A DNA stretch of 64,000 nt from a phage (GCA_018296565.1 GCA_018296565.1_3935.1), one strand, 5' to 3'; positions 1 through 28,240 are shown, counted from the first letter of the stretch. Program-made: numbers and translations. Notes: a model not told the origin generated them from the sequence alone.

Positions 1-444
1 TTTGTATCTCACCTTGATGTTGAAATTGATGAAGAAGGCTACATCATTGGTTGGAAGAAAGTCTCTACTCGTGAAGGCAAGCTGGTTGACTCTCACACCT
101 ACAAAGTGCCTAATGATTTGGGTAACATTGTAGAAATGCCACGTTGGATGGTTGATAATAACCGTAACGTAACTTGCTCTCAAGGTCTTCATGTTGGTGC
201 TTGGGATTATGTTCGTTGCTTCTCAGGTGATACAATCCTGAAGGTTCGCGTACATCCACGAGATGTTGTATCTGTTCCAACTGATTACAACGATATGAAG
301 ATGCGTTCCTCTCGTTATGAAGTTGCAGCAATCGTTGATAATCAGCGTAAAGTGCTGAAAGCGTGGGATGGTAAGACTGAAGCTTTGCATGTCATCGTTG
401 GCACTGCTGGTGAACTCATCTCTCAACGTAAACGTGAAATCTAA
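1..444 (+). CDS. hypothetical protein, 5-prime truncated at window edge
   Basis: Frame 1 is open from nt 1 to stop at 444; followed by hairpin plus T-run. Confidence 0.6.
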   Translation, partial: FVSHLDVEIDEEGYIIGWKKVSTREGKLVDSHTYKVPNDLGNIVEMPRWMVDNNRNVTCSQGLHVGAWDYVRCFSGDTILKVRVHPRDVVSVPTDYNDMKMRSSRYEVAAIVDNQRKVLKAWDGKTEALHVIVGTAGELISQRKREI

Positions 445-457
445 TAAGTAATTCCTT

Positions 458-486
458 AAAAGGCTGCTCCGGCGGCCTTTTTTATT
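458..486 (+). terminator. rho-independent terminator-like hairpin plus T-run
   Basis: GC hairpin aggctgctccggcggcct followed by TTTTTT. Confidence 0.5.
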
Positions 487-513
487 TGTATTTTGTGCAG
501 AGTGCTGTATAAT
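485..513 (+). promoter_or_regulatory. sigma70-like promoter candidate
   Basis: TTTGTA, 17 nt spacer, TATAAT, about 30 nt upstream of the 545 start. Confidence 0.4.
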
Positions 514-544
514 TGTTGTCACGATAAACTAAACAGGAGAACCA

Positions 545-1093
545 ATGAAGAAATTGATTCTAGGTTTGTGCTTAATGTTTACAGCACAATTATCTTATGC
601 AGTTGACTGCCCAGAGCTATCAATTAGCCAAAAAGTAAACATGTTAAAAGCTTACCAGTATGGTGAGAACAACATGGGTAAAGGTTGGGGTATTACTCTA
701 GCTGCTATAGCCTTACAAGAGTCAGAGTTAGGTCTAAAGGTAGAGAATAAAAAGACCCATGACTATGGTATTTTCCAGAATCACTTGAAGACTGTTGTAA
801 AGCGTAACAAAATCAGTCCTAATGTGGCTAAAAAGAAGCTCTTAAAAGATTTTGATTATGCCGCTAAAGAAACACATAAAGAGCTTGAGTTTTGGACAAA
901 GGTGCATGGTCAGCCAAAGTCAAAGAAGACTTTACAAAAAGTTTTAGCATCATATAATGCTGGGTATTCGTACAAAATCCCTAAAGCTAAGAAATATTCT
1001 CAAGATGTCTATAACAACATGAAAGTTATTGCTCAATGTGAATTTGCAACAAACATTTCTAAGGTAAACCATGAAAAAATTAAGAAAGTCTGA
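545..1093 (+). CDS. lytic transglycosylase (SLT-domain) with N-terminal signal peptide
   Basis: N-terminus MKKLILGLCLMFTAQLSYA is signal-like; ALQESELG catalytic-Glu context, YGIFQ and ASYNAGYSY motifs typical of family 1 lytic transglycosylases. Confidence 0.6.
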   Translation: MKKLILGLCLMFTAQLSYAVDCPELSISQKVNMLKAYQYGENNMGKGWGITLAAIALQESELGLKVENKKTHDYGIFQNHLKTVVKRNKISPNVAKKKLLKDFDYAAKETHKELEFWTKVHGQPKSKKTLQKVLASYNAGYSYKIPKAKKYSQDVYNNMKVIAQCEFATNISKVNHEKIKKV

Positions 1094-1766
1094 TGAAGTA
1101 CTGTGCCATGCTTACGACTTGCACCCTCATGAGTTAGGTCTTGATTCCTGTGTATGGACTCCAGAACAGTGCAGGGATTTTGAAGATACTGCAAGAGAAG
1201 TTGTATGTTCACTTGAAGAGTTCCACACATCAGAACCAATTGTGAGCGTTGTGGACAAAGAGACTGGACAAACTGTAGGTGTAAGGCGTGACAGCTTAGT
1301 CATAGTCAATAAAGACCTTGTAGAAAAAGGTAACCTTATCTTAGCAGACATTGATGGTGTTCTTACAAATTTTAATCACGAAGATTACTCAACGGAATTG
1401 ATTGATGGGTCATTTTCACAGTACACTAATTTGCTTGACTCTGTAAGAGCAAAACCAACGTATGTTTTTAGTATTATTGATGCAATTGCTAATCATGCTG
1501 CCATTGGACTCTTGACAGCGAGAGGTGAATCTCAGAGAATACCTACTGAGATGTTTTTAAGGCATAACATAGAGCATGACTACATGCTTTTTATGCGTGG
1601 TTTTGGAACTAACTCTATAAGTGCAGAAAGTTTGAAAGTGAGGATGATTCAGTCTTGCATCCTGCCTTACTTTAATATAGTATGTTTTATAGAAGACACA
1701 GAGAAGAATGTGCAGAAGGTGAACAGAATCCTTCCACACATTAAAACCATGTTAGTTAAACATTGA
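1071..1766 (+). CDS. hypothetical protein, possible HAD-superfamily phosphatase
   Basis: LILADIDGVLT resembles HAD motif I (DxDG[TV]L); LLTARGE and FIEDTEKN resemble motifs II and IV; start overlaps upstream stop. Confidence 0.4.
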   Translation: MKKLRKSDEVLCHAYDLHPHELGLDSCVWTPEQCRDFEDTAREVVCSLEEFHTSEPIVSVVDKETGQTVGVRRDSLVIVNKDLVEKGNLILADIDGVLTNFNHEDYSTELIDGSFSQYTNLLDSVRAKPTYVFSIIDAIANHAAIGLLTARGESQRIPTEMFLRHNIEHDYMLFMRGFGTNSISAESLKVRMIQSCILPYFNIVCFIEDTEKNVQKVNRILPHIKTMLVKH

Positions 1767-1776
1767 GAGAAAACTT

Positions 1777-2241
1777 ATGAACAATATCATTACGGTAGCA
1801 CTGGACGATACGGTAAACAAATCTGCAATAGTTCGTAAAATTATTCAAGGTAACTTTGAAGGTAAAATTTTTCGTGCTGTTAATGTAAAAGCTGATGGCA
1901 GCATTCGTGAATATCGTGCATTATTGAATGTTAAAAAACACGTAAAAGGTGCTGGTTCAACTACTGCACACAAAGAAAACCTGATGACTATCTATGATAT
2001 GGGCAAGGCTTCAGAGTTAGGTGCTGAAGGTATCGTTAAAGAAGGTGCTCCGTATCGCTCTTTCAATCTGGAAACTACTCTTATGCTTTCCTTTACAAGT
2101 GGTTCTAAAACAATCACTTATCTCTTTACTGATGCTGCAACGGTATCTGCTATTAAGGATAGCACTGTCAAAGCTGGCGTAGTTGCTGCTGCAAAAGCTT
2201 CTTCGATGGCTGCGAATATCCTTGCTAAAGTCCTCGGTTAA
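1777..2241 (+). CDS. hypothetical protein
   Basis: ATG-initiated ORF followed by terminator. Confidence 0.55.
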   Translation: MNNIITVALDDTVNKSAIVRKIIQGNFEGKIFRAVNVKADGSIREYRALLNVKKHVKGAGSTTAHKENLMTIYDMGKASELGAEGIVKEGAPYRSFNLETTLMLSFTSGSKTITYLFTDAATVSAIKDSTVKAGVVAAAKASSMAANILAKVLG

Positions 2242-2252
2242 GGTTAAGATAC

Positions 2253-2276
2253 AGGCTCCTTCGGGAGCCTTTTTCA
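2253..2276 (+). terminator. rho-independent terminator
   Basis: aggctccttcgggagcct hairpin followed by TTTTT. Confidence 0.65.
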
Positions 2277-2293
2277 TTTCAGGAGATTGTTAA

Positions 2294-2641
2294 ATGACAT
2301 TTAAAGAGTTCTGTCAAGCTACTTTCATAATTGTTTTCTTAGTTGGGGCAGGTGTCTGGGGAGGATACTCTTACAGAGACTATCAAGTTGCTGAAACTGA
2401 GCTAAACAATCAAAAGCTCATAAGTGTTGCTAAAGATGCTTATCAGGAAGGATTAGTTACACTGAGCACCAATTACAAAAATGATTTGAAAGATGTGCTT
2501 GCTAAGAATAAGCACACAAAAGAGGTACTAACATATGAAAAAACTAAGCCAGAGTTTTATAATGTTTGTGTTACTGATAATTATGTCAGGGTGTTCAACG
2601 AACAAAGTGAACAGTACATTCAAAAACTCCCAAGTAAGTGA
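2294..2641 (+). CDS. membrane-anchored coiled-coil protein (i-spanin-like candidate)
   Basis: N-terminal hydrophobic segment FIIVFLVGAGVWGGY followed by charged helical region; the downstream lipoprotein gene starts inside this ORF in another frame. Confidence 0.45.
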   Translation: MTFKEFCQATFIIVFLVGAGVWGGYSYRDYQVAETELNNQKLISVAKDAYQEGLVTLSTNYKNDLKDVLAKNKHTKEVLTYEKTKPEFYNVCVTDNYVRVFNEQSEQYIQKLPSK

Positions 2642-2804
2642 GAGTGATAAGTACACTCAAGAAGAATCACGGTATATCATCAAAGGCAACACAGGCAGTG
2701 ATGTAGCAGCAGCACTTGAGTTCTATCGTGATGGCTTTTACCAGTGTACAATTAAAGCTAATAACCTTATTGACATGATTTTATTAGGGAATAAGCAGCA
2801 ATGA
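2535..2804 (+). CDS. small lipoprotein (o-spanin-like candidate)
   Basis: AAGAGG RBS 10 nt upstream; signal plus lipobox-like LIIMSGC; overlaps 3-prime end of the 2294 ORF. Confidence 0.45.
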   Translation: MKKLSQSFIMFVLLIIMSGCSTNKVNSTFKNSQVSESDKYTQEESRYIIKGNTGSDVAAALEFYRDGFYQCTIKANNLIDMILLGNKQQ

Positions 2805-3070
2805 CAGAGAATCAAGACACTTTCTATGTAGAAGGTTACTTACTGTTGCCACGACCAAAAGAAACTTATATGCGAATCGATTTCTTACCAACCATTATGG
2901 ATAATGTGATGTGTCATATCTTTATGCAAGGTGTCACAGCACAGCTTAAGCATGTTGGTAAAGATTGCAAAATAAAGGTTGACACTCATCCAGAAATCAA
3001 AGAGAATCACTACACATGGTTCTTACCAGATTCTAAAGAAATCTTAGCAGTTCTTAAAACGAGGAAGTAA
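2801..3070 (+). CDS. hypothetical protein
   Basis: ORF with ATG overlapping upstream stop. Confidence 0.5.
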   Translation: MTENQDTFYVEGYLLLPRPKETYMRIDFLPTIMDNVMCHIFMQGVTAQLKHVGKDCKIKVDTHPEIKENHYTWFLPDSKEILAVLKTRK

Positions 3071-3072
3071 CT

Positions 3073-3399
3073 ATGCAGATTAATGGAAGAGATTTTGTAG
3101 CCGTTTATTACGAGAAAGATAAAGAAGTTGGCGTAGCACAAGTATCTTATGGCAATGGTAAGTGGTTGTATGGGACAATCGCAGTAGTCGGAACAAGAAG
3201 TGATACAAAAACTTTTAAAGACTGTGTTGACCTTCTTGAAGAATCCATCCACAATCATTGGTGTCTGATATGGATGACTGATAACGAAGTGATGGAGCGT
3301 TTCAAAAAGATTGATATCAATATTGACAGTATTGAGCATGTTGATTTATATGAGCTAACTGAGAAGGTAAACTATGAAAGTAATACTAGCCAGAGATAA
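3073..3399 (+). CDS. hypothetical protein
   Basis: ORF, tightly packed operon. Confidence 0.5.
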   Translation: MQINGRDFVAVYYEKDKEVGVAQVSYGNGKWLYGTIAVVGTRSDTKTFKDCVDLLEESIHNHWCLIWMTDNEVMERFKKIDINIDSIEHVDLYELTEKVNYESNTSQR

Positions 3400-3601
3400 A
3401 AAGACACGGAAACTTATCAGGTCAGCAGTGTTCATTGGACGGAATGAGGTCATCCCATTTACAGCAAATGATGTGATAGCTTACAGGAAGAACTTAGTAT
3501 TTAGTGATTGCTTGCGTGGCTTCATCTCCCAACCATTGGAAGACTTTAAAAGCCGTTGTGGTAAAGGTATCATCATTCAAGAGGTAATTATCAATGGCTG
3601 A
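3374..3601 (+). CDS. hypothetical protein
   Basis: ORF with RBS gagaagg. Confidence 0.45.
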   Translation: MKVILARDKKTRKLIRSAVFIGRNEVIPFTANDVIAYRKNLVFSDCLRGFISQPLEDFKSRCGKGIIIQEVIING

Positions 3602-3794
3602 CTTCTGCAAAGACTGTTCTATAGAAATGTTTGGACGTGATACAGGTGACTTAAAAGGTCTTATCACTGAAGATGACTTTAAAGCTGGTTATGCAATGCC
3701 AGTAATCTGTGAAGGTTGTGGATGTATCTGGGTAGACCATGAGGGGCAACGTGTAAAACCTTCAGAAGATAAAGAATCTTGGGAGAGATGTTAA
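3594..3794 (+). CDS. hypothetical Cys-rich small protein (possible zinc-binding)
   Basis: CKDC ... CEGCGC cysteine pairs. Confidence 0.45.
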   Translation: MADFCKDCSIEMFGRDTGDLKGLITEDDFKAGYAMPVICEGCGCIWVDHEGQRVKPSEDKESWERC

Positions 3795-4580
3795 ATGGGT
3801 ATTGTAAAAATAATCAATGGTGATATCTTTGCCGCATTTGATAAAGGTAAGTTTGACATCATCGGTCACGGTTGCAACTGTATGAATTTAATGGGTGCAG
3901 GTATCGCTGACAAGATTTCTAAACTTTACCCAAAAGCATATGAGACCGATACAGAAGTTTATCTATATGCAGGTGGTATAGGACACAAACCCTGTGAAAA
4001 TTTACTGGGTAATTTCTCTGTAGCACGTTTAAAACAAGGTCGTATAGCTAACCTTTACACTCAGCTTAAGACTGGTAAAGATGCCCGATACAGTGCTTTA
4101 GAGTCATCTTTGAAACAGCTTAACAGATACTGTGAAGTCAATCAGTTGAAGAAAGTCGGGTTACCTATGATTGGTGCAGGTATCGGTGGGCTAGACCCTC
4201 AAGCCGTCACAGTTATCATTAATCAGGTGATGAAGAGTGTAGATGTTTATCTATATGTCTATGAAGGAGAGATGTACCACAAGTTACGCTCAGGTTGGAA
4301 GAACTACTGTGAACCAGAATACTTTGCAGGTGTAGTTGTGTTCACGGATAATGCAGTTACCCTCTTCAGACGAAGAAAAGGTAAGATACATCAAAGTAAC
4401 CCTCCGGTTGAAAAGATGTCTCTAAGTAACGCTCTAGTTACCCACCTGTCAAAGAGCAATCACAGAATTGCTGTAACATTTGGTAGTGATGCAGAAGCTT
4501 ATATCTATGCAAGAACTGATGAGGATATCGAGGCAATCTTCTCTTCACCAGAAGTTACCTTCTTAGACGCAAAGAACTAA
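3795..4580 (+). CDS. macrodomain protein (ADP-ribose processing, TARG1/DarG-like) with C-terminal extension
   Basis: INGDIF...DIIGHGCNCMNLMGAGIADKI and ...GLPMIGAGIGGLDPQ match macrodomain glycine-rich loops as in TARG1-type enzymes. Confidence 0.55.
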   Translation: MGIVKIINGDIFAAFDKGKFDIIGHGCNCMNLMGAGIADKISKLYPKAYETDTEVYLYAGGIGHKPCENLLGNFSVARLKQGRIANLYTQLKTGKDARYSALESSLKQLNRYCEVNQLKKVGLPMIGAGIGGLDPQAVTVIINQVMKSVDVYLYVYEGEMYHKLRSGWKNYCEPEYFAGVVVFTDNAVTLFRRRKGKIHQSNPPVEKMSLSNALVTHLSKSNHRIAVTFGSDAEAYIYARTDEDIEAIFSSPEVTFLDAKN

Positions 4581-4649
4581 GAAACTCTGTAGGATATTCA
4601 CAATAGCCTAAGCCTTTCTTATCTGGTAAATTTTTCAGGTAAGGAGGGC

Positions 4650-4832
4650 TTTTTCATTTCAGAATTGTGCAGGTAGAGTTCTGTAGAGAAATCTGTAGAG
4701 AGAATTTTGAACTCCAAAGAGAAAATTCATTTTCAAACTGTGCAGGTAATCTCCAAAGAGCTTTTTCATTTTCAAAACGTGCAGACTCCGCTCAGGTCGG
4801 GCAAGAAAAATCATTTTAGAATTGTGCAGGTA
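4650..4832 (+). repeat. four spaced copies of motif tttcatttYcaNaaYtgtgcaggta
   Basis: Copies at about 4650, 4726, 4761, 4808; a fifth partial copy follows the terminator at 2271. Confidence 0.6.
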
Positions 4833-5008
4833 GGTTTTTATAGACAGCCAGCCCAACACCTCTCCCCCTCTTACTCCCCCTCTCCCCAAAAGTCAATAGA
4901 AAAATTTGTAGCGGATTGAAAAATAATTCTTGATTTGCGTTCTGTTTTGTGGTAGTCGTGCGCACCCGTTTCATTACAGTTTTGCCAAAAATATTTTTAA
5001 AATTTTTA

Positions 5009-5037
5009 TTGACTCTTTGAACGTGGTTATCTAATAT
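5009..5037 (+). promoter_or_regulatory. sigma70-like promoter
   Basis: TTGACT, 17 nt, TAATAT, just upstream of first leader of the small-gene array. Confidence 0.55.
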
Positions 5038-5100
5038 TTACATCAACGGGGAGGGAATGACCTTCCCCACTAAATAAAATCCTAAACTGGAGATTCAAAA

Positions 5101-5289
5101 ATGGCATCAAGAAAAATTAAAGTTGGCGATGAGGTTAACATTAAGCACGAATACTCTTACAAAATGCTAACTATACGCTCTTATAAGGTTTATCAGGTGG
5201 AAGCTATCCACAAAGATAATACTTTTTCCTTAAAAGGGTATAGCGAACGTTTCCCTGCTGAACTCTTTGAGAAATGGAGCGCGAAATAA
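5101..5289 (+). CDS. hypothetical small protein (cassette gene, type B leader)
   Basis: Conserved leader catcaacggggagggaatgaccttcccc...ctggagattcaaaa then ATG. Confidence 0.65.
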   Translation: MASRKIKVGDEVNIKHEYSYKMLTIRSYKVYQVEAIHKDNTFSLKGYSERFPAELFEKWSAK

Positions 5290-5495
5290 TGCTTTACAGT
5301 CGTGAATTGATGGTTACAACTAACGTTAACACAAAGGTAAAACGTTTTTACATGCAAATTTGTGGCGTATGGTCCAGAATATCAGAAGCCGACTATTGCA
5401 ACTATGTAGAAACGGCTATTAATTCTAATTGCTACCTTACAAGAAACACTAAGAAATTTACAAGGCAGACAGCGATTTACTACTACGACAAATAA
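5289..5495 (+). CDS. hypothetical small protein
   Basis: ATG overlaps upstream stop (TAATG), GGAG 10 nt upstream; ORF track start 5274 is an alternative. Confidence 0.5.
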   Translation: MLYSRELMVTTNVNTKVKRFYMQICGVWSRISEADYCNYVETAINSNCYLTRNTKKFTRQTAIYYYDK

Positions 5496-5583
5496 AGTAC
5501 TTTACAGGGGGCTTAAAAGCTGATATCTTAAGCCCCAGATAAAGAGCTTTACTAAATTAACCCTTAAACTAGGAGATTCAAAA

Positions 5584-5964
5584 ATGGCTTATCGTGCACC
5601 GAAATTCATCAACAAAGACAACTTTCGCAACGCACTGGAGAAGTCACTTGATGAAAATTTTAAAGGTAACATTATCATTGTTCACGCATTCAATTTTAAG
5701 TATGATATTAACGGGAATAAAATCAACCATTACACGGCAACCATGATAGATGGTACTCTATCAAGTGAAAAAGCCATTTTACATGCACTTGCAGGACGTG
5801 GTAAAAACCTGATAAGATGCGATAAGAGACGTTATCAGGGTGGCGCATATGGTTATGATGATGCTGTTTATCATCTTGAAAATATGGGCTATTCAGTGGA
5901 AAAAGCTGGAGTGTCTCAAATAATCGGCAGTGACGGCTATGTGACAATTTTCAAAATTAACTGA
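5584..5964 (+). CDS. hypothetical small protein (cassette gene, type A leader)
   Basis: Preceded by ggggcttaaaag...taagcccc hairpin and ctaggagattcaaaa RBS block. Confidence 0.65.
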   Translation: MAYRAPKFINKDNFRNALEKSLDENFKGNIIIVHAFNFKYDINGNKINHYTATMIDGTLSSEKAILHALAGRGKNLIRCDKRRYQGGAYGYDDAVYHLENMGYSVEKAGVSQIIGSDGYVTIFKIN

Positions 5965-6053
5965 TAAAGTACTTTACAAGGGGCTTATAGTTCGATAAAG
6001 TAAGCCCCAGATAAAGAGCTTTACCACTAAATCCTAAATTGGAGAACTTAAAA

Positions 6054-6347
6054 ATGGCTATTATCAAAAACGTTGTAATTACTGCAAAGACTCGTGATGA
6101 CGCTCGCGTTATGGCTAAAAAGTTATGCGGGAAAGTGGTTGACAATGGAAAACAATCTGCTGTAAGGTGGGGCGTGAAGGTTGATAAACAGTTGAAGTTA
6201 AAAAATTCACCGATAAACCTTTTTACATGTGTAAACACTATCGGGAAGACAAATGTATACACAAAAAAGGCATACATTAGACGCGTAGCATTAACATCCC
6301 CCATTCGTACAATGAGAAGTTACGCAAAGCTGAAAATTAACAAATAA
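6054..6347 (+). CDS. hypothetical small protein (cassette gene, type A leader)
   Basis: ATG at 6054 directly after conserved leader; ORF-track start 6039 is TTG inside the leader. Confidence 0.6.
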   Translation: MAIIKNVVITAKTRDDARVMAKKLCGKVVDNGKQSAVRWGVKVDKQLKLKNSPINLFTCVNTIGKTNVYTKKAYIRRVALTSPIRTMRSYAKLKINK

Positions 6348-6432
6348 AGTACTTTACAAGGGGCTTAAAAGTTGATATCTTAAGCCCCAGATAAAGAGCT
6401 TTACCACTAAATCCTAAACTGGAGATTCAAAA

Positions 6433-6945
6433 ATGAAAACTGTAGACGCTACCTTTGAAGTTGTAAAAGAAAAATTCACAATTATCTATGAAGCGGTAAA
6501 TTGCTACGAGTCAAGCCATAATCTTGACAATTGGGAGTTTACAGACGCCCATCAGGGCGGCGTGACTATTAAAAACCCCAACTGTCAGCGTAACGATTTT
6601 AAATATGCAATCCCTTTAAATTATAGCCTTAAACAGCTTTCTAGTGACTATGCAAAACAAGGCCGGGAAAACCCATCAAAAGGGGCTTACACCAGCTTAC
6701 AGAAAGAACTAGAAAGAGATTTAGAGGCTTCAGAATACAACCTTGCCGCGAAAGTTGTGGATGCAAACGGTAACACGGTTTTAGAAAGTTTTTATCTTGG
6801 CTATGCTTTCGATTGGTGCTATCGTGACGGCGATGATTTAGAGGATAGACTAAAAGAAGAGGTGAATAATTCAGACGCAGAATCTGAAGTATTAGAACGT
6901 TTGGAATCGTTGAAAGACTCAGTGATGAATATCTTTAAGAACTAA
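6433..6945 (+). CDS. hypothetical acidic protein (cassette gene, type A leader)
   Basis: Conserved leader plus RBS; 170 aa. Confidence 0.65.
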   Translation: MKTVDATFEVVKEKFTIIYEAVNCYESSHNLDNWEFTDAHQGGVTIKNPNCQRNDFKYAIPLNYSLKQLSSDYAKQGRENPSKGAYTSLQKELERDLEASEYNLAAKVVDANGNTVLESFYLGYAFDWCYRDGDDLEDRLKEEVNNSDAESEVLERLESLKDSVMNIFKN

Positions 6946-7036
6946 ATAGATTTCTTTACACGGGGTTATCAAACTGGTATGATAGCCCCAGATAAAGAGA
7001 TTTATCAAATTAACCCTTAAACTAGGAGATTCAAAA

Positions 7037-7333
7037 ATGAAATTATCAAATAAAGTTAGGGAAAATCTAAGCAAGTTACTCAACAAAATTGATTTTATCG
7101 AGACCTCAAGAAATACTCATGAGGTTATGGAATGGTTACACGGCAAAATAAAAGGCCGTCGTGTAGTGATTTGCTTATGGAATAGTTGCAGGGAGTATAA
7201 AAAGTCTGTATTGCAAATTAATGTTTATGATGATACTTGTAAAAGTCCTGTTAAGTCTGAAAGTGATTTACTAGATTCTTATGAGATAACTGTAAATGGC
7301 AAAGTGTCACGTAAAGAGGAAGCACTATGTTAA
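7037..7333 (+). CDS. hypothetical small protein (cassette gene, variant type A leader)
   Basis: Leader hairpin ggggttatc...gatagcccc with compensatory changes. Confidence 0.6.
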   Translation: MKLSNKVRENLSKLLNKIDFIETSRNTHEVMEWLHGKIKGRRVVICLWNSCREYKKSVLQINVYDDTCKSPVKSESDLLDSYEITVNGKVSRKEEALC

Positions 7334-7659
7334 TGATGGGTATCACTGCAATCATTGCTATTATGGCGCTATATAAGGCGTACAGCGCCTACAATCTGGC
7401 AAGTAAGGCAATCACGCAACAGGTCAATAATAGCCTTGTAATGAGTTTTCTGGAGCGTTTAAGTGATGAACAAATAAAACGGTTAGAAATGAGCTTCAGA
7501 TTTCAATCAAAAACTTATCAAATCAGCGACATTTTCAAAGATAATTTTCAGCTTGTCGATGATTATAACTCTCTGATAAATGCTTTAAATATCAGTGACT
7601 TAAAAGACTATTACACTGTAATTGTCCAAGAACTGAACAAACGAAAAAATTTCTCTTGA
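7327..7659 (+). CDS. hypothetical protein with N-terminal hydrophobic segment
   Basis: MLMMGITAIIAIMALY hydrophobic N-terminus; overlaps upstream stop. Confidence 0.5.
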   Translation: MLMMGITAIIAIMALYKAYSAYNLASKAITQQVNNSLVMSFLERLSDEQIKRLEMSFRFQSKTYQISDIFKDNFQLVDDYNSLINALNISDLKDYYTVIVQELNKRKNFS

Positions 7660-7749
7660 TTTTAGTTTTAAAAACAAGTAAATTACTAATCAACGGGGAG
7701 GGAATGACCTTCCCCACTAAGTAAAGTCCTTAAACTAGGAGATTCAAAA

Positions 7750-8022
7750 ATGTACACTACTAACAACGGTCGCACCTTAAACGTAACCCTACGCCACTAT
7801 GTGAACGGTGTAATGCACTTCGAGGATTTACAAGCTGAACAGCACATTTTGGATTGGCAACTTGCAGGATTCCAAAAAACTGCTACCGGATACGGGAAAA
7901 AGATTCCAACTAGCTGGAAAGTATACTACGAAGGCCGTTTGCGTAGAATTTATCAAGATGTATGCGGCAATAGCGCATCAAGTTACGTCATAGTAAAAGG
8001 CAAAAAGCTGCATTTAGCATAA
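7750..8022 (+). CDS. hypothetical small protein (cassette gene, type B leader)
   Basis: Conserved leader plus RBS. Confidence 0.65.
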   Translation: MYTTNNGRTLNVTLRHYVNGVMHFEDLQAEQHILDWQLAGFQKTATGYGKKIPTSWKVYYEGRLRRIYQDVCGNSASSYVIVKGKKLHLA

Positions 8023-8107
8023 AGTACTTTACAAGGGGCTTATAGTTCGATAAAGTAAGCCCCAGATAAAGAGCTTTACCACTAAATCCTAAACTGGAGA
8101 TTCAAAA

Positions 8108-8512
8108 ATGGCTATTAATAATCGTGAGTTATCTATCTTAAAAGCACGTTTGACCGTCAACCGGATTAATGTTATCACATCATCAGCACCAGATGAAACA
8201 CTGCAAAACATTATCGGAAAGATTCAAAGCGTTATTTTAGACGTTGAAAACGTAAAAAATTCATTGGCTGACGTTGCAGCAGGTATCACACTAGACGGTG
8301 CGCAATATGAAATGTCCGACATGTTAGGCAAATCTAAGGTAATGAATAAAGAGTTAGATTTGAAAATGTTCCGATTTGCTGTTAAAGTGTGGCTATCTGT
8401 CGAGTATGATGCTAACTTTGCAATCGCTGACTTTTTCGCCACTTGGTTGCAGCGTAATTTGACTAATCATGACTTCCGCGATATCTGTGATGCAATTTAT
8501 GCAGAACTCTAA
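8108..8512 (+). CDS. hypothetical small protein (cassette gene, type A leader)
   Basis: Conserved leader plus RBS. Confidence 0.65.
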   Translation: MAINNRELSILKARLTVNRINVITSSAPDETLQNIIGKIQSVILDVENVKNSLADVAAGITLDGAQYEMSDMLGKSKVMNKELDLKMFRFAVKVWLSVEYDANFAIADFFATWLQRNLTNHDFRDICDAIYAEL

Positions 8513-8521
8513 AAAATTTTG

Positions 8522-8550
8522 TTGACACTGGTTTTTAGATAGATTAAATT
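8522..8550 (+). promoter_or_regulatory. sigma70-like promoter candidate
   Basis: TTGACA, 17 nt, TAAATT upstream of type B leader. Confidence 0.45.
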
Positions 8551-8613
8551 ACACATCAACGGGGAGGGAATGACCTTCCCCACTAAATAAAGTCCTAAAC
8601 TGGAGATTCTAAA

Positions 8614-8811
8614 ATGGCTATTATTAACGGCTTAACCATTGAAACTACACACATCAAAGATATCAAAGTTGGCGATATAGTCCTTTCCCACGGCGTAGAA
8701 AAAACTGTCACTGCAAAGGATATCAAAGAGGATTCTTTCATGGGTAGGACTCTCTTCGGTGATTCTTATTGCTTAGGTTATCTTGCAGTTTTAAAAGTTG
8801 TCAAAAATTAA
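8614..8811 (+). CDS. hypothetical small protein (cassette gene, type B leader)
   Basis: Conserved leader plus RBS. Confidence 0.6.
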   Translation: MAIINGLTIETTHIKDIKVGDIVLSHGVEKTVTAKDIKEDSFMGRTLFGDSYCLGYLAVLKVVKN

Positions 8812-8902
8812 CAAATAAAGTACTTTACAAGGGGCTTAAAAGTTGATATCTTAAGCCCCAGATAAAGAGCTTTACACAGTCCTTAAACTAGGAGATTAAA
8901 AA

Positions 8903-9151
8903 ATGATGAACTATTTCAATATCCCTGATACCTGCCGACTATTGACACAAGAAGAAAACTTGGGTAAACCTTTTCTTTACCACATGCCAGACAACACACC
9001 AAAAACTTATAGTTACAATGTCAACCGTTTTACCGCATACGCTGCAAAGAACGGTTATAAGTTGGTCACTCAAAAAGTAATGCTGGTTACAACCGCTGAC
9101 GAGATTCCTACAGTTGCAGTTAAACTAATTTTCTCAAAAAAAGTTAAATAA
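8903..9151 (+). CDS. hypothetical small protein (cassette gene, type A leader)
   Basis: Conserved leader plus RBS. Confidence 0.6.
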   Translation: MMNYFNIPDTCRLLTQEENLGKPFLYHMPDNTPKTYSYNVNRFTAYAAKNGYKLVTQKVMLVTTADEIPTVAVKLIFSKKVK

Positions 9152-9236
9152 AGTACTTTACAAGGGGTTTATAGTTCGATAAAGTAAGCCCCAGATAAAG
9201 AGCTTTACCACTAAATCCTAAACTGGAGATTCAAAA

Positions 9237-9800
9237 ATGAAATGCTATCACGGCACTACTCTGAAAAACTTTGTAAACTTACTGAATGGTGGCGACAAGC
9301 CGGAAGGAATCTGGAACTGCTCCTACATGGATGATTGTTTCTACGTTTACCCAATGAACAAGGTTATCAAAACGGAATGTCTGGAAGATGAGGAAGATTC
9401 TTATATCCGTGAACGCTGCATTCAAAGCGCCTTAGAGTCTGGGCTTATTACGGCAGCTTTCCAAATGGAAACGCAGGAAGTGATTGTTATCGAAATGGAT
9501 ATCCCAGAGGAAGAACTTGAGGACGATTATTCTTGTGACAACATGAGCGAAATTGCCAGCTTTACCGGATACTTTGATAAGAATTGGATTATCGGCATAC
9601 ACTCGACGAAATTTAGTGCGATGTATGCACCTTTCTTTGTACCAGATGCAACTAACCGCAATTTAGGCTATGTTGACGATGATTTGTTAAGTATGGCGAA
9701 AATTGTACAGAATAGCGGTGACAGTTCCGTGTTTTGTGACTTGCTGGATAAAATCACGGCAAACATCACAGAGCGCAATTTAAAAGACTTTTTAGGTTAA
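9237..9800 (+). CDS. hypothetical acidic protein (cassette gene, type A leader)
   Basis: Conserved leader plus RBS; 187 aa. Confidence 0.65.
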   Translation: MKCYHGTTLKNFVNLLNGGDKPEGIWNCSYMDDCFYVYPMNKVIKTECLEDEEDSYIRERCIQSALESGLITAAFQMETQEVIVIEMDIPEEELEDDYSCDNMSEIASFTGYFDKNWIIGIHSTKFSAMYAPFFVPDATNRNLGYVDDDLLSMAKIVQNSGDSSVFCDLLDKITANITERNLKDFLG

Positions 9801-9863
9801 TCAGTACAAAGACACCAACTTCCAACTTAAGGCCCATACAGGGCCATTTAAAGGGCTTAAATC

Positions 9864-10097
9864 ATGCTTACAACCGTTTATCTTATCCTTTCTATTTGTA
9901 ATGGTCATTCATGTGATTTTAAAGGGCTTGAGGAGTTTACAGGGAGTAAAGAAAATGCTATTCAAGTTTGCCAGATAGCAAGACAAGACTATCCCGCCAG
10001 TGATGATATTCAATGCTACTTTAAGACAGAAGATGAAGACGGCGTCTATTTTGACAGTGTCGATGGTCAATATGAAATTATCATTGAAAAAGACTAG
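9864..10097 (+). CDS. hypothetical small protein
   Basis: ORF preceded by a different hairpin ggcccatacagggcc; no conserved leader. Confidence 0.5.
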   Translation: MLTTVYLILSICNGHSCDFKGLEEFTGSKENAIQVCQIARQDYPASDDIQCYFKTEDEDGVYFDSVDGQYEIIIEKD

Positions 10098-10187
10098 ACA
10101 AGCCTGATAAAAATCTGTAAATTGTCAATCAACGGGGAGGGAATGACCTTCCCCACTAAATAAAGTCCTAAACTGGAGATTCTAAAA

Positions 10188-10529
10188 ATGGCTTATGTAA
10201 CCGTAATTACCGATAAAGCTGGCGCATCTTGGTCAACTCAGGTCAGTGATAAGATGTCACCTATGCAGTGCCTAAAATACTTTGAACAGTGGAATAAAGG
10301 CGAGGACACAAGCCCCTTTCAAGTGATGCAGATTATCCATGTAGACAACGAAGGGAATAAAACGACGCTGAATAGTGAGTACTATGCAAGCCGTTTTGAA
10401 ACGAGAAGTAAAACAATGAAACTTTTACGTGAATCCGGTTATACCCATATCGCCGCGTTAATCTGGGATGACCTGCTAAAAAGTCAGCGTATCAGCTATG
10501 TAAAACCTGAAAAAATATTCATCAGTTAA
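10188..10529 (+). CDS. hypothetical small protein (cassette gene, type B leader)
   Basis: Conserved leader plus RBS. Confidence 0.65.
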   Translation: MAYVTVITDKAGASWSTQVSDKMSPMQCLKYFEQWNKGEDTSPFQVMQIIHVDNEGNKTTLNSEYYASRFETRSKTMKLLRESGYTHIAALIWDDLLKSQRISYVKPEKIFIS

Positions 10530-10561
10530 TCAATAACTTACAAAAAACTTTTAAAAAGATG

Positions 10562-10590
10562 TTGACAACCCCTCTTGACATTGGTAACTT
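10562..10590 (+). promoter_or_regulatory. sigma70-like promoter candidate (tandem TTGACA boxes)
   Basis: Two TTGACA hexamers; TAACTT 17 nt after the first. Confidence 0.35.
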
Positions 10591-10751
10591 TGTTCGAGGG
10601 GGTTTATCTAAAAGGGATTAACTTAAAAGATTCTTTATAGATAGATTTAAAAAATTGCTTGCAATCAGATATCAAAACAAGTAAATTACTCATCAACGGG
10701 GAGGCAATAACCTCCCTACTAAGTAAAGTCCTTAAACTAGGAGATTCTAAA

Positions 10752-11282
10752 ATGAACAAGTTCAAAGCTATCAACTATATTCGTTCAAATAATGTAATGG
10801 CTAAGCCTGTTAAAGATACCTATGAATTTCGTTGTAATGGGGTACACTTTGCAACCATTACCAAATCAGAAAACGGGGCTTATTACGTTCATCGTCGTAA
10901 TGTTGCAACCGTTGTAGTCTCTCACTTTATGCAAGCTGTCGCGGAACTTCTCCCGATGTTTTTAGGTCTTTATTTAGATGAGTGTAAAAACGTTCACAGC
11001 CACGTTAAAAACCTTTTAAATAGCTATAAAATGGCTTATGAACGTTCTATCAAGTCCTTAAACAAGTTTTACAACGCACCTAAAAATACTGTATCAATAG
11101 CCTATGCTGCAAATGGTGAGATGGTAAACTTATCCAATGTGGAAGAAATCAAGCTGCATGATTTACGCCCTAGCGGTTACTCTAAGACTCTCGGTGAAGG
11201 TTTAACGTTCAATATCAAGAACTTAGAGAAAACTTTAAAAGATATTGAAAAAGATATTGACGAGACAACCAAAAGTCTGTAA
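10752..11282 (+). CDS. hypothetical protein (cassette gene, variant type B leader)
   Basis: ATG at 10752 directly after leader; ORF-track start 10659 lies inside the leader. Confidence 0.6.
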   Translation: MNKFKAINYIRSNNVMAKPVKDTYEFRCNGVHFATITKSENGAYYVHRRNVATVVVSHFMQAVAELLPMFLGLYLDECKNVHSHVKNLLNSYKMAYERSIKSLNKFYNAPKNTVSIAYAANGEMVNLSNVEEIKLHDLRPSGYSKTLGEGLTFNIKNLEKTLKDIEKDIDETTKSL

Positions 11283-11347
11283 ATTGTCAATCAACGGGGA
11301 GGGAATGACCTTCCCCACTAAATAAAATCCTAAACTGGAGATTCAAA

Positions 11348-11611: not shown

Positions 11612-11688
11612 ATTACTAATCAACGGGAGGGACAACCTCCCTACTAAGTAAAGTCCTTAAACTACTTCCTAAACTGGAGATTCTAAAA

Positions 11689-26329: not shown

Positions 26330-26342
26330 CAGTCTTATTAGG

Positions 26343-26430: not shown

Positions 26431-26582
26431 CCTAATAAGATTTAAAGCCAAGCTTCATTCGGATGTTGCTTTGGTATCCCTCGTGTATTGTCGTACACAC
26501 TGATAAAGCACCTAGTAGGTGTCACGGAGAAGAGATAATATCAAGCTCTCCAAAGGTTCTAGTCACCGGATTAAACAAGACT

Positions 26583-27443: not shown

Positions 27444-27686
27444 ATGCAAACATTAATCGTCGTTGAACATGAAAATCCCAATAGTATTGAGTTTGTAAGG
27501 GTTCCCACTATAGATACTCACATTTTCTTGAAAGTCGGATGGGAATGCGACCCGATAAAAGTAGGAAAATTTCTTGGTCATTACTTTGGTGGAAGACAAT
27601 TTAAAAGTATCAATTTTGAGACAGTATTACCAGAAAACTCAGAAACAGACAATAATACTTACCTCCTTACGAGGATTAGACAATGA
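27444..27686 (+). CDS. hypothetical small protein (inside tRNA array)
   Basis: AAGAGGA RBS, ATG start, 80 aa. Confidence 0.5.
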   Translation: MQTLIVVEHENPNSIEFVRVPTIDTHIFLKVGWECDPIKVGKFLGHYFGGRQFKSINFETVLPENSETDNNTYLLTRIRQ

Positions 27687-28240
27687 GATACTTAAAATAT
27701 GTTTCATGGATTTTCTTAGCTTTGTTAGAACCATTTGCAGCAACACTAGCAGTCATCTTAGCACCTTTCGTAGTTCCATTCTACAGTGAGAAGAAAGGGC
27801 ATCTACCTTTTGGATTCAGATGGATGGAGACCTATGACAACCCTATTGATGGTGACAAAGGCCACGTTGAGAGATGGGCTAAGATTAGAAAGATTGGTAA
27901 GCTTGGTGTCTACATGCAGAGAGTTGGATGGCTCTGGAGAAACAAAGCTTATAACTTCTCTTACCATGTATTAGGAAGAGATGTAAAAGACGTTACTAAG
28001 TGGAAAGGTAATATCAACGTAAGTTCTAACCCTGAAGATAATCAAACAGGTTATCTCCTAATGTGGAACAGTAATGCTTGGGGATTATTCGCTTTTATTC
28101 CATCAATTAAAATCTTTGGTAAACAGTTTTACTGGAGAATTTATATTGGATGGAAACTTAAAAGTGTTGTCCCAGAAGAAAGAGCATTCTCAAGGGAAAG
28201 AGTTATGTTGGCATTCTTTATTCATCCACTGAGAAAGTAA
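27683..28240 (+). CDS. hypothetical membrane-anchored protein (inside tRNA array)
   Basis: N-terminal hydrophobic segment WIFLALLEPFAATLAVILAPFVVPF; 185 aa. Confidence 0.5.
   Translation: MRYLKYVSWIFLALLEPFAATLAVILAPFVVPFYSEKKGHLPFGFRWMETYDNPIDGDKGHVERWAKIRKIGKLGVYMQRVGWLWRNKAYNFSYHVLGRDVKDVTKWKGNINVSSNPEDNQTGYLLMWNSNAWGLFAFIPSIKIFGKQFYWRIYIGWKLKSVVPEERAFSRERVMLAFFIHPLRK

What the first reader, a model, noticed from the sequence alone, without database searches (positions are those of the whole stretch)
545..2804. Secreted lytic transglycosylase plus spanin-like overlapping gene pair, far from the GH24 lysozyme
A signal-peptide SLT-domain enzyme (545-1093) is followed 1.2 kb downstream by a membrane-anchored coiled-coil ORF (2294-2641) with a lipoprotein ORF (2535-2804) starting inside it in another frame, the overlapped architecture typical of i-spanin/o-spanin pairs. 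A separate T4-type lysozyme is encoded 16 kb away on the other strand, so the phage may carry two muralytic activities and a split lysis system. The spanin call rests on architecture only.
Basis: inference. Interest (0 to 1): 0.4.

Follow-up and report, generated by a model that had tools for sequence, protein, structure and literature searches.

The report
Known Felix O1 spanins plus Vs.1-like transglycosylase
The flagged genes are real but ordinary: a Felix O1-type phage carries its already-catalogued overlapping spanin pair and a secreted cell-wall-cutting enzyme that matches phage T4's little-studied Vs.1 protein, all scattered around the genome as in T4.

Summary
The window is a Felixounavirus (about 97% identical to KhF3 and LMP33), and all three ORFs exist as described.

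**Spanin pair (2294-2641 and 2535-2804).** This is a genuine overlapped two-component spanin.
- The inner-membrane partner (i-spanin) has an N-terminal transmembrane segment and hits PHROG "Rz-like spanin" at 1e-41.
- The +1-frame ORF encodes a lipobox (lipoprotein signal) lipoprotein, Cys20, with Ser at +2.
- The same frame, lipobox and one periplasmic Cys per protein persist in genera where the i-spanin is only 26-35% identical.
- Nucleotide divergence in the 107-nt dual-coded stretch is about half that of the flanks.
- Kongari et al. 2018 already list Felix O1 among overlapped spanins, and relatives are annotated this way.

**ORF 545-1093.** This is a Sec-exported enzyme with the SLT/goose-lysozyme fold (CAZy family GH23).
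- The residues matching the three SLT motifs are invariant, including the catalytic Glu59.
- It is the counterpart of T4 Vs.1, found in more than 2,000 phage records.
- Its SLT similarity was noted in 2006, but I found no report of a function.
- Some relatives mislabel it "RegB endoribonuclease".

**Wider lysis system.** The GH24 endolysin (18779-19243, minus strand) is confirmed. Scattered, T4-like lysis genes are a published trait of Felix O1-like phages. Nothing here is new, so interest is low.

The parts
458..487 (+). Intrinsic terminator ending the rIIB transcription unit, immediately upstream of the SLT-like gene
   Evidence: Hairpin AAAAGGCTGCTCCGGCGGCCTTTT followed by a T-run. ASO1A annotates a terminator at the homologous site.
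510..515 (+). Perfect TATAAT -10 hexamer 29 nt before the ATG. It is a candidate host-sigma70 (early) promoter, but the -35 is weak.
   Evidence: Read from the sequence. ASO1A annotates a promoter here with 3 mismatches. The consensus scan did not list it because the -35 has fewer than 4/6 matches. Weak evidence.
545..1093 (+). T4 Vs.1 ortholog: a Sec-exported enzyme with the GH23 (SLT/goose-lysozyme) fold. Signal peptide is residues 1-19 (nt 545-601), catalytic Glu59 is at nt 719-721. Cys22 and Cys165 are a probable disulfide.
1071..1766 (+). Protein annotated as 'polynucleotide kinase'. Only the HAD phosphatase-type part is recognisable (DIDGV motif); no P-loop is seen.
   Evidence: phrog_3970 hits at 6e-134, and weaker hits align only to the phosphatase part of PNK families. 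The equivalent gene in a relative has a faint HAD_PNKP hit. BLASTP to T4 PseT is weak, but D-x-D-G aligns.
1777..2241 (+). Conserved hypothetical protein lying between the phosphatase gene and the spanins
   Evidence: phrog_2267, unknown function. There is a sub-threshold WYL_2/SH3-like hit here and in a relative.
2253..2278 (+). Intrinsic terminator just upstream of the spanin genes
   Evidence: AGGCTCCTTCGGGAGCCT followed by TTTTTC. It is annotated in ASO1A.
2294..2641 (+). i-spanin: an inner-membrane protein with an N-terminal transmembrane segment (about residues 7-25), a helical periplasmic domain and the conserved C-terminal block EKTKPxFYNVCxTDxYVxxFNE (Cys92)
   Evidence: phrog_1152 'Rz-like spanin' at 1.1e-41. 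It is 100% identical to the Felix O1 protein.
2535..2804 (+). o-spanin: an outer-membrane lipoprotein precursor. Signal peptide is residues 1-19, the lipidated Cys20 is at nt 2592-2594, and Ser is at +2. It has a conserved EFYRDxFYQC..NGLID block (Cys71). It is +1 frame relative to the i-spanin with a 107-nt overlap, and its stop overlaps the next ATG (ATGA).
   Evidence: It hits phrog_4180 and phrog_456 'Rz-like spanin' at 2.4e-4. CPT annotation of Mushroom and Maleficent uses the same 270-nt ORF.
18779..19243 (-). Soluble GH24 (T4-lysozyme-type) endolysin with no N-terminal hydrophobic segment
   Evidence: PF00959 at 9.2e-41 and phrog_7 endolysin at 1.3e-57. Its Mushroom homolog is annotated as the endolysin.
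27683..28240 (+). Candidate holin according to CPT annotation of relatives: a 185-aa DUF7338 protein with one N-terminal hydrophobic segment, lying inside the tRNA cluster. The assignment is unverified.
   Evidence: Mushroom annotates 'holin' at the homologous position. Pfam DUF7338 hits at 1.4e-61 and phrog_2143 is of unknown function. Bardina 2016 states that the holin of Felix O1/UAB_Phi87 is unidentified.

Best explanation
The region holds two separate envelope-directed functions of a Felix O1-like phage, arranged as in T4 rather than in a lambda-style lysis cassette.

**(1) Genes 2294-2641 and 2535-2804: an overlapped two-component spanin.**
- The i-spanin is anchored in the inner membrane by its N-terminal transmembrane segment.
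- The o-spanin is made from the +1 frame and processed at its lipobox.
- It is then lipidated on Cys20 and, with Ser at +2, sorted to the outer membrane.
- The two periplasmic domains bind to span the periplasm through the cell-wall mesh.
- A holin lets the soluble GH24 endolysin (18779-19243, minus strand) destroy the peptidoglycan.
- The freed complexes then fuse inner and outer membranes, completing lysis.
- One conserved periplasmic Cys in each subunit probably forms the homodimer disulfides that spanins need.

**(2) Gene 545-1093: the counterpart of T4 Vs.1.**
- It is a small GH23-fold enzyme exported by the Sec pathway and cleaved after Ala19.
- It acts on peptidoglycan in the periplasm through Glu59, most likely as a lytic transglycosylase.
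- It is exported without a holin and sits in the rII-proximal region, which corresponds to T4's early genes.
- It is therefore most likely an accessory wall-remodelling enzyme made before lysis, not the lysis endolysin.

**Shown:** the ORFs, export signals, motifs, fold, homologies and dual coding.
**Inferred:** localisation, enzymatic activity, timing and physiological role.
For: **Identity of the genome.** It is about 97% identical to Felixounaviruses.

**Spanins.**
- phrog_1152 Rz-like spanin hits at 1e-41, and phrog_456 at 2e-4.
- The transmembrane segment and a PS51257-type lipobox are present.
- Lipobox N-termini are rare in this window: 3 ORFs among 773 candidate starts.
- The +1-frame lipobox ORF overlaps the i-spanin 3' end by 107-137 nt in Hafnia, Kuravirus and Erwinia phages.
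- Cys20-S-T and Cys71 are invariant in the o-spanin, and Cys92 in the i-spanin.
- Overlap divergence is 0.019-0.112 per site against 0.046-0.276 in the flanks. There are no indels over 511 nt in five comparisons.
- Felix01/FO1a/UAB_phi87 are listed as overlapped spanins in PMC6139136.
- ekra, Mushroom and Maleficent annotate the pair as spanins.

**Enzyme.**
- E59, S60, Q78, Y137, N138 and G140 are invariant or nearly so.
- 13/13 homologs match PF01464, best 8e-12.
- The family profile best matches PDB entry EtgA, then goose-type lysozymes.
- The AF2 model has pLDDT 84.6. Foldseek returns goose-type lysozymes, Cj0843 Slt, MltF, MltD and MltE, and phage SLT-domain proteins at TM about 0.7.
- BLASTP to the SP18 Vs.1 protein gives 2e-16.
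- T4 Vs.1 passes the SLT cutoff.
- Signal peptides are present in seven lineages.

**Timing analogy.** T4 vs.1 and pseT.3 are early RNA/middle protein, and pseT.2 is early/early (PMC9697503 supplement).

**Scattered T4-like lysis genes in Felix O1-likes.** PMC4319497 and PMC4392139.
Against: - No experiment exists for any of these Felix O1 proteins.
- The window protein alone is below Pfam's SLT gathering score (19.2 vs 21.3 bits). Foldseek PDB E-values are modest (best 4e-3).
- GH23 contains both hydrolytic lysozymes and lytic transglycosylases, so the chemistry is not settled.
- Early expression rests on a weak promoter match and on analogy with T4.
- The coiled-coil character of the i-spanin was not confirmed.
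- The spanins show no sequence similarity to T4's or, by my tests, to lambda's. Function is therefore inferred from architecture and family annotation.
- The spanin genes lie behind a terminator with no recognisable promoter of their own.
Confidence: 0.78

Rival explanations
1. The SLT-like protein is a second, holin-independent endolysin. On this view it is a secreted endolysin that accumulates in the periplasm and is unleashed at lysis time, so the phage truly has a dual or split endolysin system.
For: - It has an export signal and an intact catalytic motif set.
- Nolan et al. 2006 suggested 'some role in cell lysis' for vs.1.
- ekra and others label it 'putative lysin'.
- In Ounavirinae it lies in the same gene block as the spanins.
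Against: - From established T4 genetics (my own knowledge, not a tool result): T4 e mutants do not lyse although vs.1 is intact. Vs.1 therefore cannot substitute for the endolysin.
- In T4 the transcript is early.
- It sits after rIIB rather than with late genes.
- A soluble GH24 endolysin is present.
- E. coli tolerates several periplasmic lytic transglycosylases (my own knowledge).
Confidence: 0.1
2. The 545-1093 product is a T4 RegB-like endoribonuclease, as annotated in Mushroom, mistaenkt, Maynard and several T4-like records.
For: Only the deposited annotations support it.
Against: - True T4 RegB matches Pfam REGB_T4 at 231 bits. T4 Vs.1, Maynard_110 and the window protein match only SLT.
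- In SP18 and T4, regB is the separate gene immediately upstream of vs.1, and the similarity lies in vs.1.
- No RegB structure appears in the sequence or fold searches.
- A signal peptide is incompatible with a cytoplasmic RNase.
Confidence: 0.01
3. The 2294-2641/2535-2804 pair is not a spanin. It would instead be a membrane protein plus a lipoprotein with another envelope role, for example superinfection exclusion or receptor masking like T5 Llp or Cor.
For: - There is no experimental test.
- There is no detectable similarity to T4 PseT.3/PseT.2.
- The genes lie far from the endolysin, in a region corresponding to T4's early genes.
- The o-spanin's own PHROG is labelled 'unknown function'.
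- The o-spanin is not proline-rich like lambda Rz1.
Against: - The i-spanin family is annotated Rz-like at 1e-41.
- The obligate pairing and overlap of a type-II membrane protein with a lipoprotein is conserved across four genera, including a podovirus genus.
- One conserved periplasmic Cys per subunit fits the spanin disulfide rule described in PMC6139136.
- T4's proven spanins are likewise early-expressed, next to pseT and far from e and t.
- No other spanin candidate was seen. The only other lipoprotein ORF (60887, minus strand) was not checked for a membrane-protein partner.
Confidence: 0.06
4. The Vs.1-like enzyme is a specialised 'space-making' transglycosylase, like EtgA, VirB1 or P19. 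It would locally open the sacculus early in infection so that phage envelope-spanning assemblies, such as spanin complexes, can form. Alternatively it would alter the wall against superinfecting phages.
For: - The closest solved-structure sequence match is EtgA.
- It has the same size class and Sec signal as those enzymes (plus my own knowledge).
- It is linked with the spanin genes throughout Ounavirinae.
- It is expressed early in T4.
Against: - In T4 and Ackermannviridae the gene is not near the spanins.
- There is no evidence of any partner.
- I recall T4 vs.1 being dispensable in the laboratory, but I did not check this.
- The idea is purely inferential.
Confidence: 0.15

Closest known systems
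Felix O1 / FO1a / UAB_Phi87 overlapped two-component spanins (Kongari et al. 2018 census, PMC6139136)
   Same: It is the same family. The i-spanin is 100% identical to that of Felix O1. The overlapped architecture and ORF lengths match the CPT annotations (348 and 270 nt).
   Different: Nothing substantive differs. This is another isolate of the same genus.
Phage T4 PseT.3 / PseT.2 spanins
   Same: - The subunits are similar in size: 117/83-99 aa against 115/89 aa here.
- The o-spanin is not proline-rich and has a structured C-terminal part.
- The genes lie beside the polynucleotide kinase/phosphatase gene, far from the endolysin and holin.
- Expression is early or middle.
   Different: - There is no detectable sequence similarity.
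- T4's genes count as 'separated' (4-nt overlap), whereas here they overlap by 107 nt.
- In T4 both periplasmic Cys are in the o-spanin and none in the i-spanin. Here there is one in each.
- Gene order relative to the kinase gene is reversed.
Lambda Rz/Rz1 and P2 LysB/LysC
   Same: The logic is the same: a type-II inner-membrane protein plus an outer-membrane lipoprotein encoded in the +1 frame. P2 LysB/LysC is the classical overlapped case (my own knowledge; the classes are defined).
   Different: - Lambda Rz1 is fully embedded, short and proline-rich.
- Lambda and P2 keep these genes in a lysis cassette with the holin and endolysin.
- I did not test sequence relationship directly, beyond the PHROG family label 'Rz-like spanin'.
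Phage T4 Vs.1 (20.7 kDa protein between regB and vs)
   Same: - The two are homologous: 2e-16 to the SP18 Vs.1 protein, about 31% identity.
- Length matches (181 vs 182 aa).
- Both have a Sec signal peptide and the E-S / GxFQ / YNxG motifs.
- Both hit Pfam SLT.
- A macro-domain (Tk.4-like) gene lies nearby in both lineages.
   Different: - The Ounavirinae clade has a co-occurring Cys pair (Cys22/Cys165) that T4 lacks.
- The neighbours differ: rIIB and the phosphatase gene here, regB and vs in T4.
Specialised secretion-system lytic transglycosylases (EtgA, IpgF, IagB, VirB1, P19)
   Same: They are small (about 150-190 aa), Sec-exported, single-domain family-1 SLT enzymes. EtgA is the best PDB sequence match (2.2e-4).
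   Different: - Similarity is distant.
- There is no secretion-system context, and all homolog contexts found are phage genomes.
- The Asp that aligns with an Asp of EtgA (D73) is not conserved in the family.

Membership tests
Two-component spanin (i-spanin/o-spanin) | The i-spanin has a single N-terminal transmembrane segment followed by a periplasmic domain | tested here: met
   The hydrophobic segment CQATFIIVFLVGAGVWG covers residues 7-23, and nothing else in the protein is hydrophobic. It is conserved in four genera. The N-in/C-out topology is inferred.
Two-component spanin (i-spanin/o-spanin) | The i-spanin periplasmic domain is predicted to be helical or coiled-coil | tested here: inconclusive
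   The single-sequence AF2 model is all-helix but has pLDDT 47. A crude heptad statistic was not above shuffles, and the lambda Rz control was only marginal.
Two-component spanin (i-spanin/o-spanin) | The o-spanin has a signal peptidase II signal with a lipobox Cys and no inner-membrane retention residue (Asp) at +2 | tested here: met
   MKKLSQSFIMFVLLIIMSGC20-S-T matches the PS51257-type pattern. C-S-T is invariant in four genera.
Two-component spanin (i-spanin/o-spanin) | The o-spanin gene is embedded in, overlapping, or directly following the i-spanin gene | tested here: met
   The overlap is 107 nt in the +1 frame. It is conserved, with depressed divergence in the overlap.
Two-component spanin (i-spanin/o-spanin) | At least one periplasmic Cys is available for intermolecular disulfide bonds | tested here: met
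   Cys92 (i-spanin) and Cys71 (o-spanin) are invariant. The rule is described in PMC6139136. The bond itself was not tested.
Two-component spanin (i-spanin/o-spanin) | Sequence membership in a recognised spanin family | tested here: met
   phrog_1152 hits at 1.1e-41 and phrog_456 at 2.4e-4. Felix O1 is listed by Kongari 2018.
Two-component spanin (i-spanin/o-spanin) | The pair is required for outer-membrane disruption and complements lambda Rz/Rz1 | not testable with these tools
   This needs a genetic experiment.
Family-1 lytic transglycosylase / GH23 (Pfam SLT PF01464) | Motif I, E-S, with the catalytic Glu | tested here: met
   In Q-E59-S60, Glu59 is invariant and Ser60 nearly so across 13 homologs. 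The motif is present in seven lineages.
Family-1 lytic transglycosylase / GH23 (Pfam SLT PF01464) | Motifs II (G-L-M-Q) and III (A-Y-N-x-G) | tested here: met
   G75-I-F-Q78 and S136-Y-N-A-G140 are present. Q78, Y137, N138 and G140 are invariant.
Family-1 lytic transglycosylase / GH23 (Pfam SLT PF01464) | The protein scores above Pfam's gathering threshold | tested here: inconclusive
   The window protein scores 19.2 bits against a 21.3 cutoff. All 13 homologs match at E<=0.01, best 8.2e-12. T4 Vs.1 scores 25.1 bits.
Family-1 lytic transglycosylase / GH23 (Pfam SLT PF01464) | Goose-lysozyme/SLT alpha-helical fold | tested here: met
   The AF2 model has pLDDT 84.6. Of the 50 PDB matches listed, nearly all are lysozyme-type enzymes: goose-type lysozymes, a chitinase with the same fold, Slt, MltF, MltD and MltE. 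The few exceptions rank low (two mannanases, one cytoglobin). TM is about 0.5 and probability up to 1.0. Phage SLT proteins match at TM about 0.7.
Family-1 lytic transglycosylase / GH23 (Pfam SLT PF01464) | Non-hydrolytic cleavage giving 1,6-anhydro-MurNAc, as opposed to lysozyme hydrolysis | not testable with these tools
   This needs muropeptide analysis. The Asp aligned with an Asp of EtgA (D73) is not conserved in the family, which leans towards the single-Glu transglycosylase mechanism.
T4 Vs.1 family | Significant full-length sequence similarity to Vs.1 of T4-like phages, with the same length and signal peptide | tested here: met
   tblastn covers about 85% of the protein in T4-like records, under features named vs.1. 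BLASTP gives 2e-16. T4 and SP18 Vs.1 have signal peptides.
T4 RegB endoribonuclease | Match to Pfam REGB_T4 or similarity to T4 RegB | tested here: not met
   No REGB_T4 hit was found for the window protein, T4 Vs.1 or Maynard_110, whereas true RegB scores 231 bits. regB is a distinct neighbouring gene.
SAR (signal-anchor-release) endolysin | A long, weakly hydrophobic, Gly/Ala-rich N-terminal transmembrane segment with no signal peptidase site | tested here: not met
   The hydrophobic core is only 11-17 aa and is followed by a small-x-small site (SYA|V, AHS|S, VKA|V, and similar) in all lineages. The judgement was made by rule, not with SignalP.

The most novel reading that the evidence does not exclude
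The Vs.1 family would be an unrecognised, early-acting step of infection rather than a redundant lysin. The family is a Sec-exported GH23 enzyme conserved in more than 2,000 records of T4-like, Felix O1-like, Ackermannviridae, Vibrio, Aeromonas, Acinetobacter and jumbo phages. I found no report of a function for it in the searchable literature.

One possibility is local opening or remodelling of the sacculus. That could let phage envelope-spanning complexes such as spanins assemble. It could also change susceptibility to superinfection or 'lysis from without'.
Probability: 0.15. Interest if true: 0.5.

Novelty: already known. Interest (0 to 1): 0.14.

Why it matters
It matters little as a discovery. 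The spanin pair, the GH24 endolysin and the scattered T4-like layout are published for Felix O1-like phages, and the SLT similarity of Vs.1 was noted two decades ago.

The practical value is curation.
- The "RegB endoribonuclease" label on this family is wrong and has spread across several phage families.
- Many Felixounavirus records omit the o-spanin or truncate its signal peptide.
- The holin of this genus is still unproven.

The one open biological question is what a widely conserved, early-made periplasmic muramidase does for large virulent phages.

Tried and rejected
- **RegB identity of 545-1093: rejected**.
- **Single-sequence PDB search:** nothing found. Only the family profile reached EtgA and goose-type lysozymes.
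- **NCBIfam:** only noise.
- **PADLOC:** no hits for any gene in the block.
- **Rfam on 1-6000:** one sub-threshold chance hit.
- **BLASTP of the spanins to T4 PseT.3/PseT.2:** no similarity beyond the lipoprotein signal.
- **AF2 of the i-spanin without an alignment:** low confidence and not usable.
- **Heptad-periodicity test for a coiled coil:** not above shuffles.
- **TTGTGCAG as a shared promoter-associated motif upstream of the SLT gene:** not significantly enriched, 7 against 3.1 +/- 1.7; dropped.
- **Consensus promoter scan:** it did not pick up the candidate promoter before 545, so 'early' timing rests mainly on position and the T4 analogy.
- **Literature on Vs.1 function:** three searches found only Nolan 2006. 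The Miller 2003 T4 review is not held.
- **Cellular homologs of the enzyme:** the one labelled 'Campylobacter coli' sits on a contig that also encodes chimallin, so it is probably jumbo-phage DNA.


Full report
**What the window is.** The first 5 kb match about 230 Felixounavirus genomes over at least 80% of their length, with the best matches 96-97% identical (KhF3, LMP33, ekra). The window starts inside rIIB. The flagged block follows a fixed gene order:
- rIIB, a terminator, then 545-1093
- 1071-1766, labelled 'polynucleotide kinase'
- 1777-2241, a hypothetical protein, then a terminator
- 2294-2641 and 2535-2804
- several small ORFs
- 3795-4580, a macro-domain protein

This order is seen.

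**Checking the observation.** All ORFs exist as stated.
- The 182-aa product of 545-1093 begins MKKLILGLCLMFTAQLSYA|VD, a classical Sec signal by the -3/-1 rule.
- The 115-aa product of 2294-2641 has a single hydrophobic segment at residues 7-23.
- The 89-aa ORF at 2535-2804 starts 107 nt before the end of the previous gene, in the +1 frame, behind an AAGAGG ribosome-binding site.
- That ORF begins MKKLSQSFIMFVLLIIMSGC20ST, which fits the PROSITE-type lipobox pattern.
- Such N-termini are rare here: 3 distinct ORFs among 773 candidate starts in all six frames.
- The T4-type lysozyme is at 18779-19243 on the minus strand (PF00959 9e-41).

**The spanin pair is real and already catalogued.**
- The i-spanin hits PHROG 1152 'Rz-like spanin' at 1.1e-41. 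The lipoprotein hits its own PHROG and, weakly, another 'Rz-like spanin' family.
- The i-spanin is 100% identical to that of Felix O1 itself. tblastn finds it in 402 phage records, many annotated i-spanin/o-spanin.
- I tested the pairing independently. In a Hafnia ounavirus, an E. coli Kuravirus (a podovirus) and an Erwinia phage, the i-spanin is only 26-35% identical in the alignment (27-38% by tblastn). Even so, a lipobox ORF begins in the same +1 frame 116-137 nt before the i-spanin stop.
- Alignments show C20-S-T and Cys71 invariant in the o-spanin, within a conserved EFYRDxFYQC..NGLID block. Cys92 is invariant in the i-spanin, within EKTKPxFYNVCxTDxYVxxFNE.
- Across Felixounavirus, Suspvirus and Mooglevirus the 511-nt unit has no indels. 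Nucleotide divergence in the dual-coded 107 nt is roughly half that of either single-coded flank. For Maleficent it is 0.112 against 0.224 and 0.239; for ekra, 0.019 against 0.046 and 0.049. This is the expected signature when both frames are translated.
- Kongari et al. 2018 list '(Felix01, FO1a, UAB_phi87)' among overlapped two-component spanins (PMC6139136).
- The Center for Phage Technology annotations of Mushroom and Maleficent use exactly these ORFs.
A single-sequence AF2 model is helical but unreliable, and a crude heptad statistic was uninformative.

**The 'SLT' ORF is the counterpart of T4 Vs.1.**
- Alone it scores just under Pfam's SLT threshold (19.2 vs 21.3 bits), and its PHROG is 'unknown function'.
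- A search of the large protein collection gave 21 homologs. In their alignment E59, Q78, Y137, N138 and G140 are invariant and S60 nearly so. These are the E-S, G-x-F-Q and S-Y-N-x-G motifs.
- All 13 aligned members match PF01464, best 8e-12.
- The family profile's best solved-structure match is the type III secretion transglycosylase EtgA (2.2e-4), followed by goose-type lysozymes.
- An AF2 model (pLDDT 84.6) retrieves goose-type lysozymes, Campylobacter Slt, MltF, MltD and MltE from the PDB. It retrieves phage 'SLT domain' proteins from BFVD at TM about 0.7.
- tblastn finds the protein in 2,143 phage records. In T4-like genomes the match falls under the gene named vs.1, the '20.7 kDa protein'. 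BLASTP to the SP18 Vs.1 protein gives 2e-16.
- T4 Vs.1 (MRKALLAGLLAISMMAHS|SE...), SP18 Vs.1 (with its start moved upstream), and the Hafnia, Erwinia, Ackermannviridae and Vibrio homologs all carry Sec-type signal peptides and the same motif spacing.
- The Ounavirinae clade adds two cysteines (Cys22, Cys165) that appear together or not at all. This fits a periplasmic disulfide.
- Nolan et al. 2006 already reported the marginal SLT similarity of vs.1 and suggested 'some role in cell lysis'. I found no experimental study.

**An annotation error.**
- Mushroom, mistaenkt, Maynard and several T4-like records call this protein 'RegB endoribonuclease'.
- In T4 and SP18, regB is the separate gene immediately upstream of vs.1.
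- True RegB matches Pfam REGB_T4 at 231 bits, whereas Vs.1, Maynard_110 and the window protein match only SLT.
- The label is therefore wrong.

**How the system most likely works.**
- The endolysin is a soluble GH24 enzyme with no export signal, so it needs a holin.
- The holin is not established. CPT assigns it to a DUF7338 protein inside the tRNA cluster (window 27683-28240), while Bardina et al. 2016 regard it as unidentified.
- The spanins would sit in the envelope, threaded through the wall, and fuse the two membranes once the wall is removed. This is the Young-laboratory model summarised in PMC6139136.
- The layout parallels T4. There pseT.3 and pseT.2 lie next to the polynucleotide kinase gene and far from e and t, and they are early or middle products.
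- Genome announcements already state that Felix O1-like lysis genes are 'scattered around the genome' and 'T4-like'.
- The Vs.1-like enzyme is exported without a holin. It follows the rIIB terminator and a TATAAT box, and its T4 counterpart is an early transcript.
- From classical T4 genetics (my own knowledge), T4 e mutants fail to lyse. Vs.1 therefore cannot act as the endolysin.
- I conclude it is most likely an accessory periplasmic wall-remodelling enzyme. Its chemistry (transglycosylase or lysozyme) and purpose remain open.

**Context of distant homologs.**
- The only 'bacterial' homolog, labelled Campylobacter coli, lies on a 215-kb contig that also encodes chimallin, so it is probably jumbo-phage DNA.
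- Another homolog lies in an Ounavirinae-like contig with the same rIIA-rIIB-SLT-PNKP...Macro order.
- The family therefore looks phage-specific.

**Verdict.** However, the spanins, the second muralytic domain and the dispersed lysis genes are all documented, so novelty is 'already known' and interest is low. The residual open question is the physiological role of the widespread Vs.1 family.

Noticed in passing
window 545-1093; L004 27873-28421 (Mushroom); L015 3902-4519 (Maynard); many T4-like records: The Vs.1/SLT family is repeatedly mislabelled 'RegB endoribonuclease' in GenBank records of three phage families. The likely cause is that regB is the adjacent gene in T4. Pfam shows no RegB similarity.
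   Followed up: yes
L001 4080-4301 (ekra); L018 905-1111 (mistaenkt); L019 1022-1111 (ESh21); L002 (ASO1A, no CDS): The o-spanin is often mis-annotated in Felixounavirus and related records. Starts are placed at internal Met codons, which removes the signal peptide and lipobox, or the gene is missing altogether. The full 270-nt ORF is the conserved one.
   Followed up: yes
window 27683-28240 (+): The protein that CPT calls 'holin' in relatives is a 185-aa DUF7338 / phrog_2143 protein of unknown function. It sits in the middle of the tRNA cluster. The holin of this genus appears unproven.
   Followed up: partly
window about 60627-60887 (-): A second clean lipoprotein-type ORF of 86 aa (MNNKVKSCVKAMVALGVIFLAGC...). 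It could be a superinfection-exclusion or receptor-masking lipoprotein.
   Followed up: no
window 3795-4580 (+): A macro-domain protein (Pfam Macro 1e-7; phrog_335 'phosphatase') resembling T4 Tk.4. In T4 the order is regB-vs.1-vs-tk.4, so Vs.1-like and Tk.4-like genes are neighbours in both lineages.
   Followed up: partly
window 1071-1766 (+): The gene annotated 'polynucleotide kinase' aligns only to the HAD phosphatase part of PNK families (DIDGV motif). It shows no P-loop in its N-terminal 85 aa, so the kinase label may be an over-annotation. Its start overlaps the SLT gene by 23 nt.
   Followed up: partly
window 5023-11693 (+): At least ten small genes are each preceded by a near-identical cassette. 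Each cassette is a GC-rich hairpin (two types, for example CAACGGGGAGGGAATGACCTTCCCCAC or AAGGGGCTTA...TAAGCCCC), followed by the conserved leader CCTAAACTGGAGATTCAAAAATG. These are repeated terminator and 5'-UTR modules.
   Followed up: no
window 4654-4844 (+): Short tandem-like repeats (three copies of about 34 nt, plus a 34-nt pair 157 nt apart) lie in the gene-free stretch after the macro-domain gene and its terminator. Their function is unknown. The shared TTGTGCAG word is not enriched window-wide.
   Followed up: partly
window 24036-29601 (+): A cluster of 27 tRNA genes, interspersed with an HNH-like ORF (25925-26329) and the DUF7338 gene.
   Followed up: no
L012 (GCA_053226485.1 contig ACBEZJ010000004.1, labelled Campylobacter coli): A 215-kb contig in a bacterial assembly encodes a chimallin (phage-nucleus shell) homolog next to a Vs.1-like SLT protein. 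It is probably a jumbo-phage genome inside a 'bacterial' assembly.
   Followed up: no
window 15397-15930 (-): A 177-aa protein (phrog_4343, unknown function) with two C-terminal hydrophobic segments. It is another membrane protein that could be considered when looking for the missing holin or antiholin.
   Followed up: no
window 2535-2600: The most conserved block of the i-spanin (E82-E103) is encoded by the same nucleotides as the o-spanin signal peptide and lipobox. Part of its conservation may therefore reflect the dual-coding constraint rather than i-spanin function alone.
   Followed up: partly
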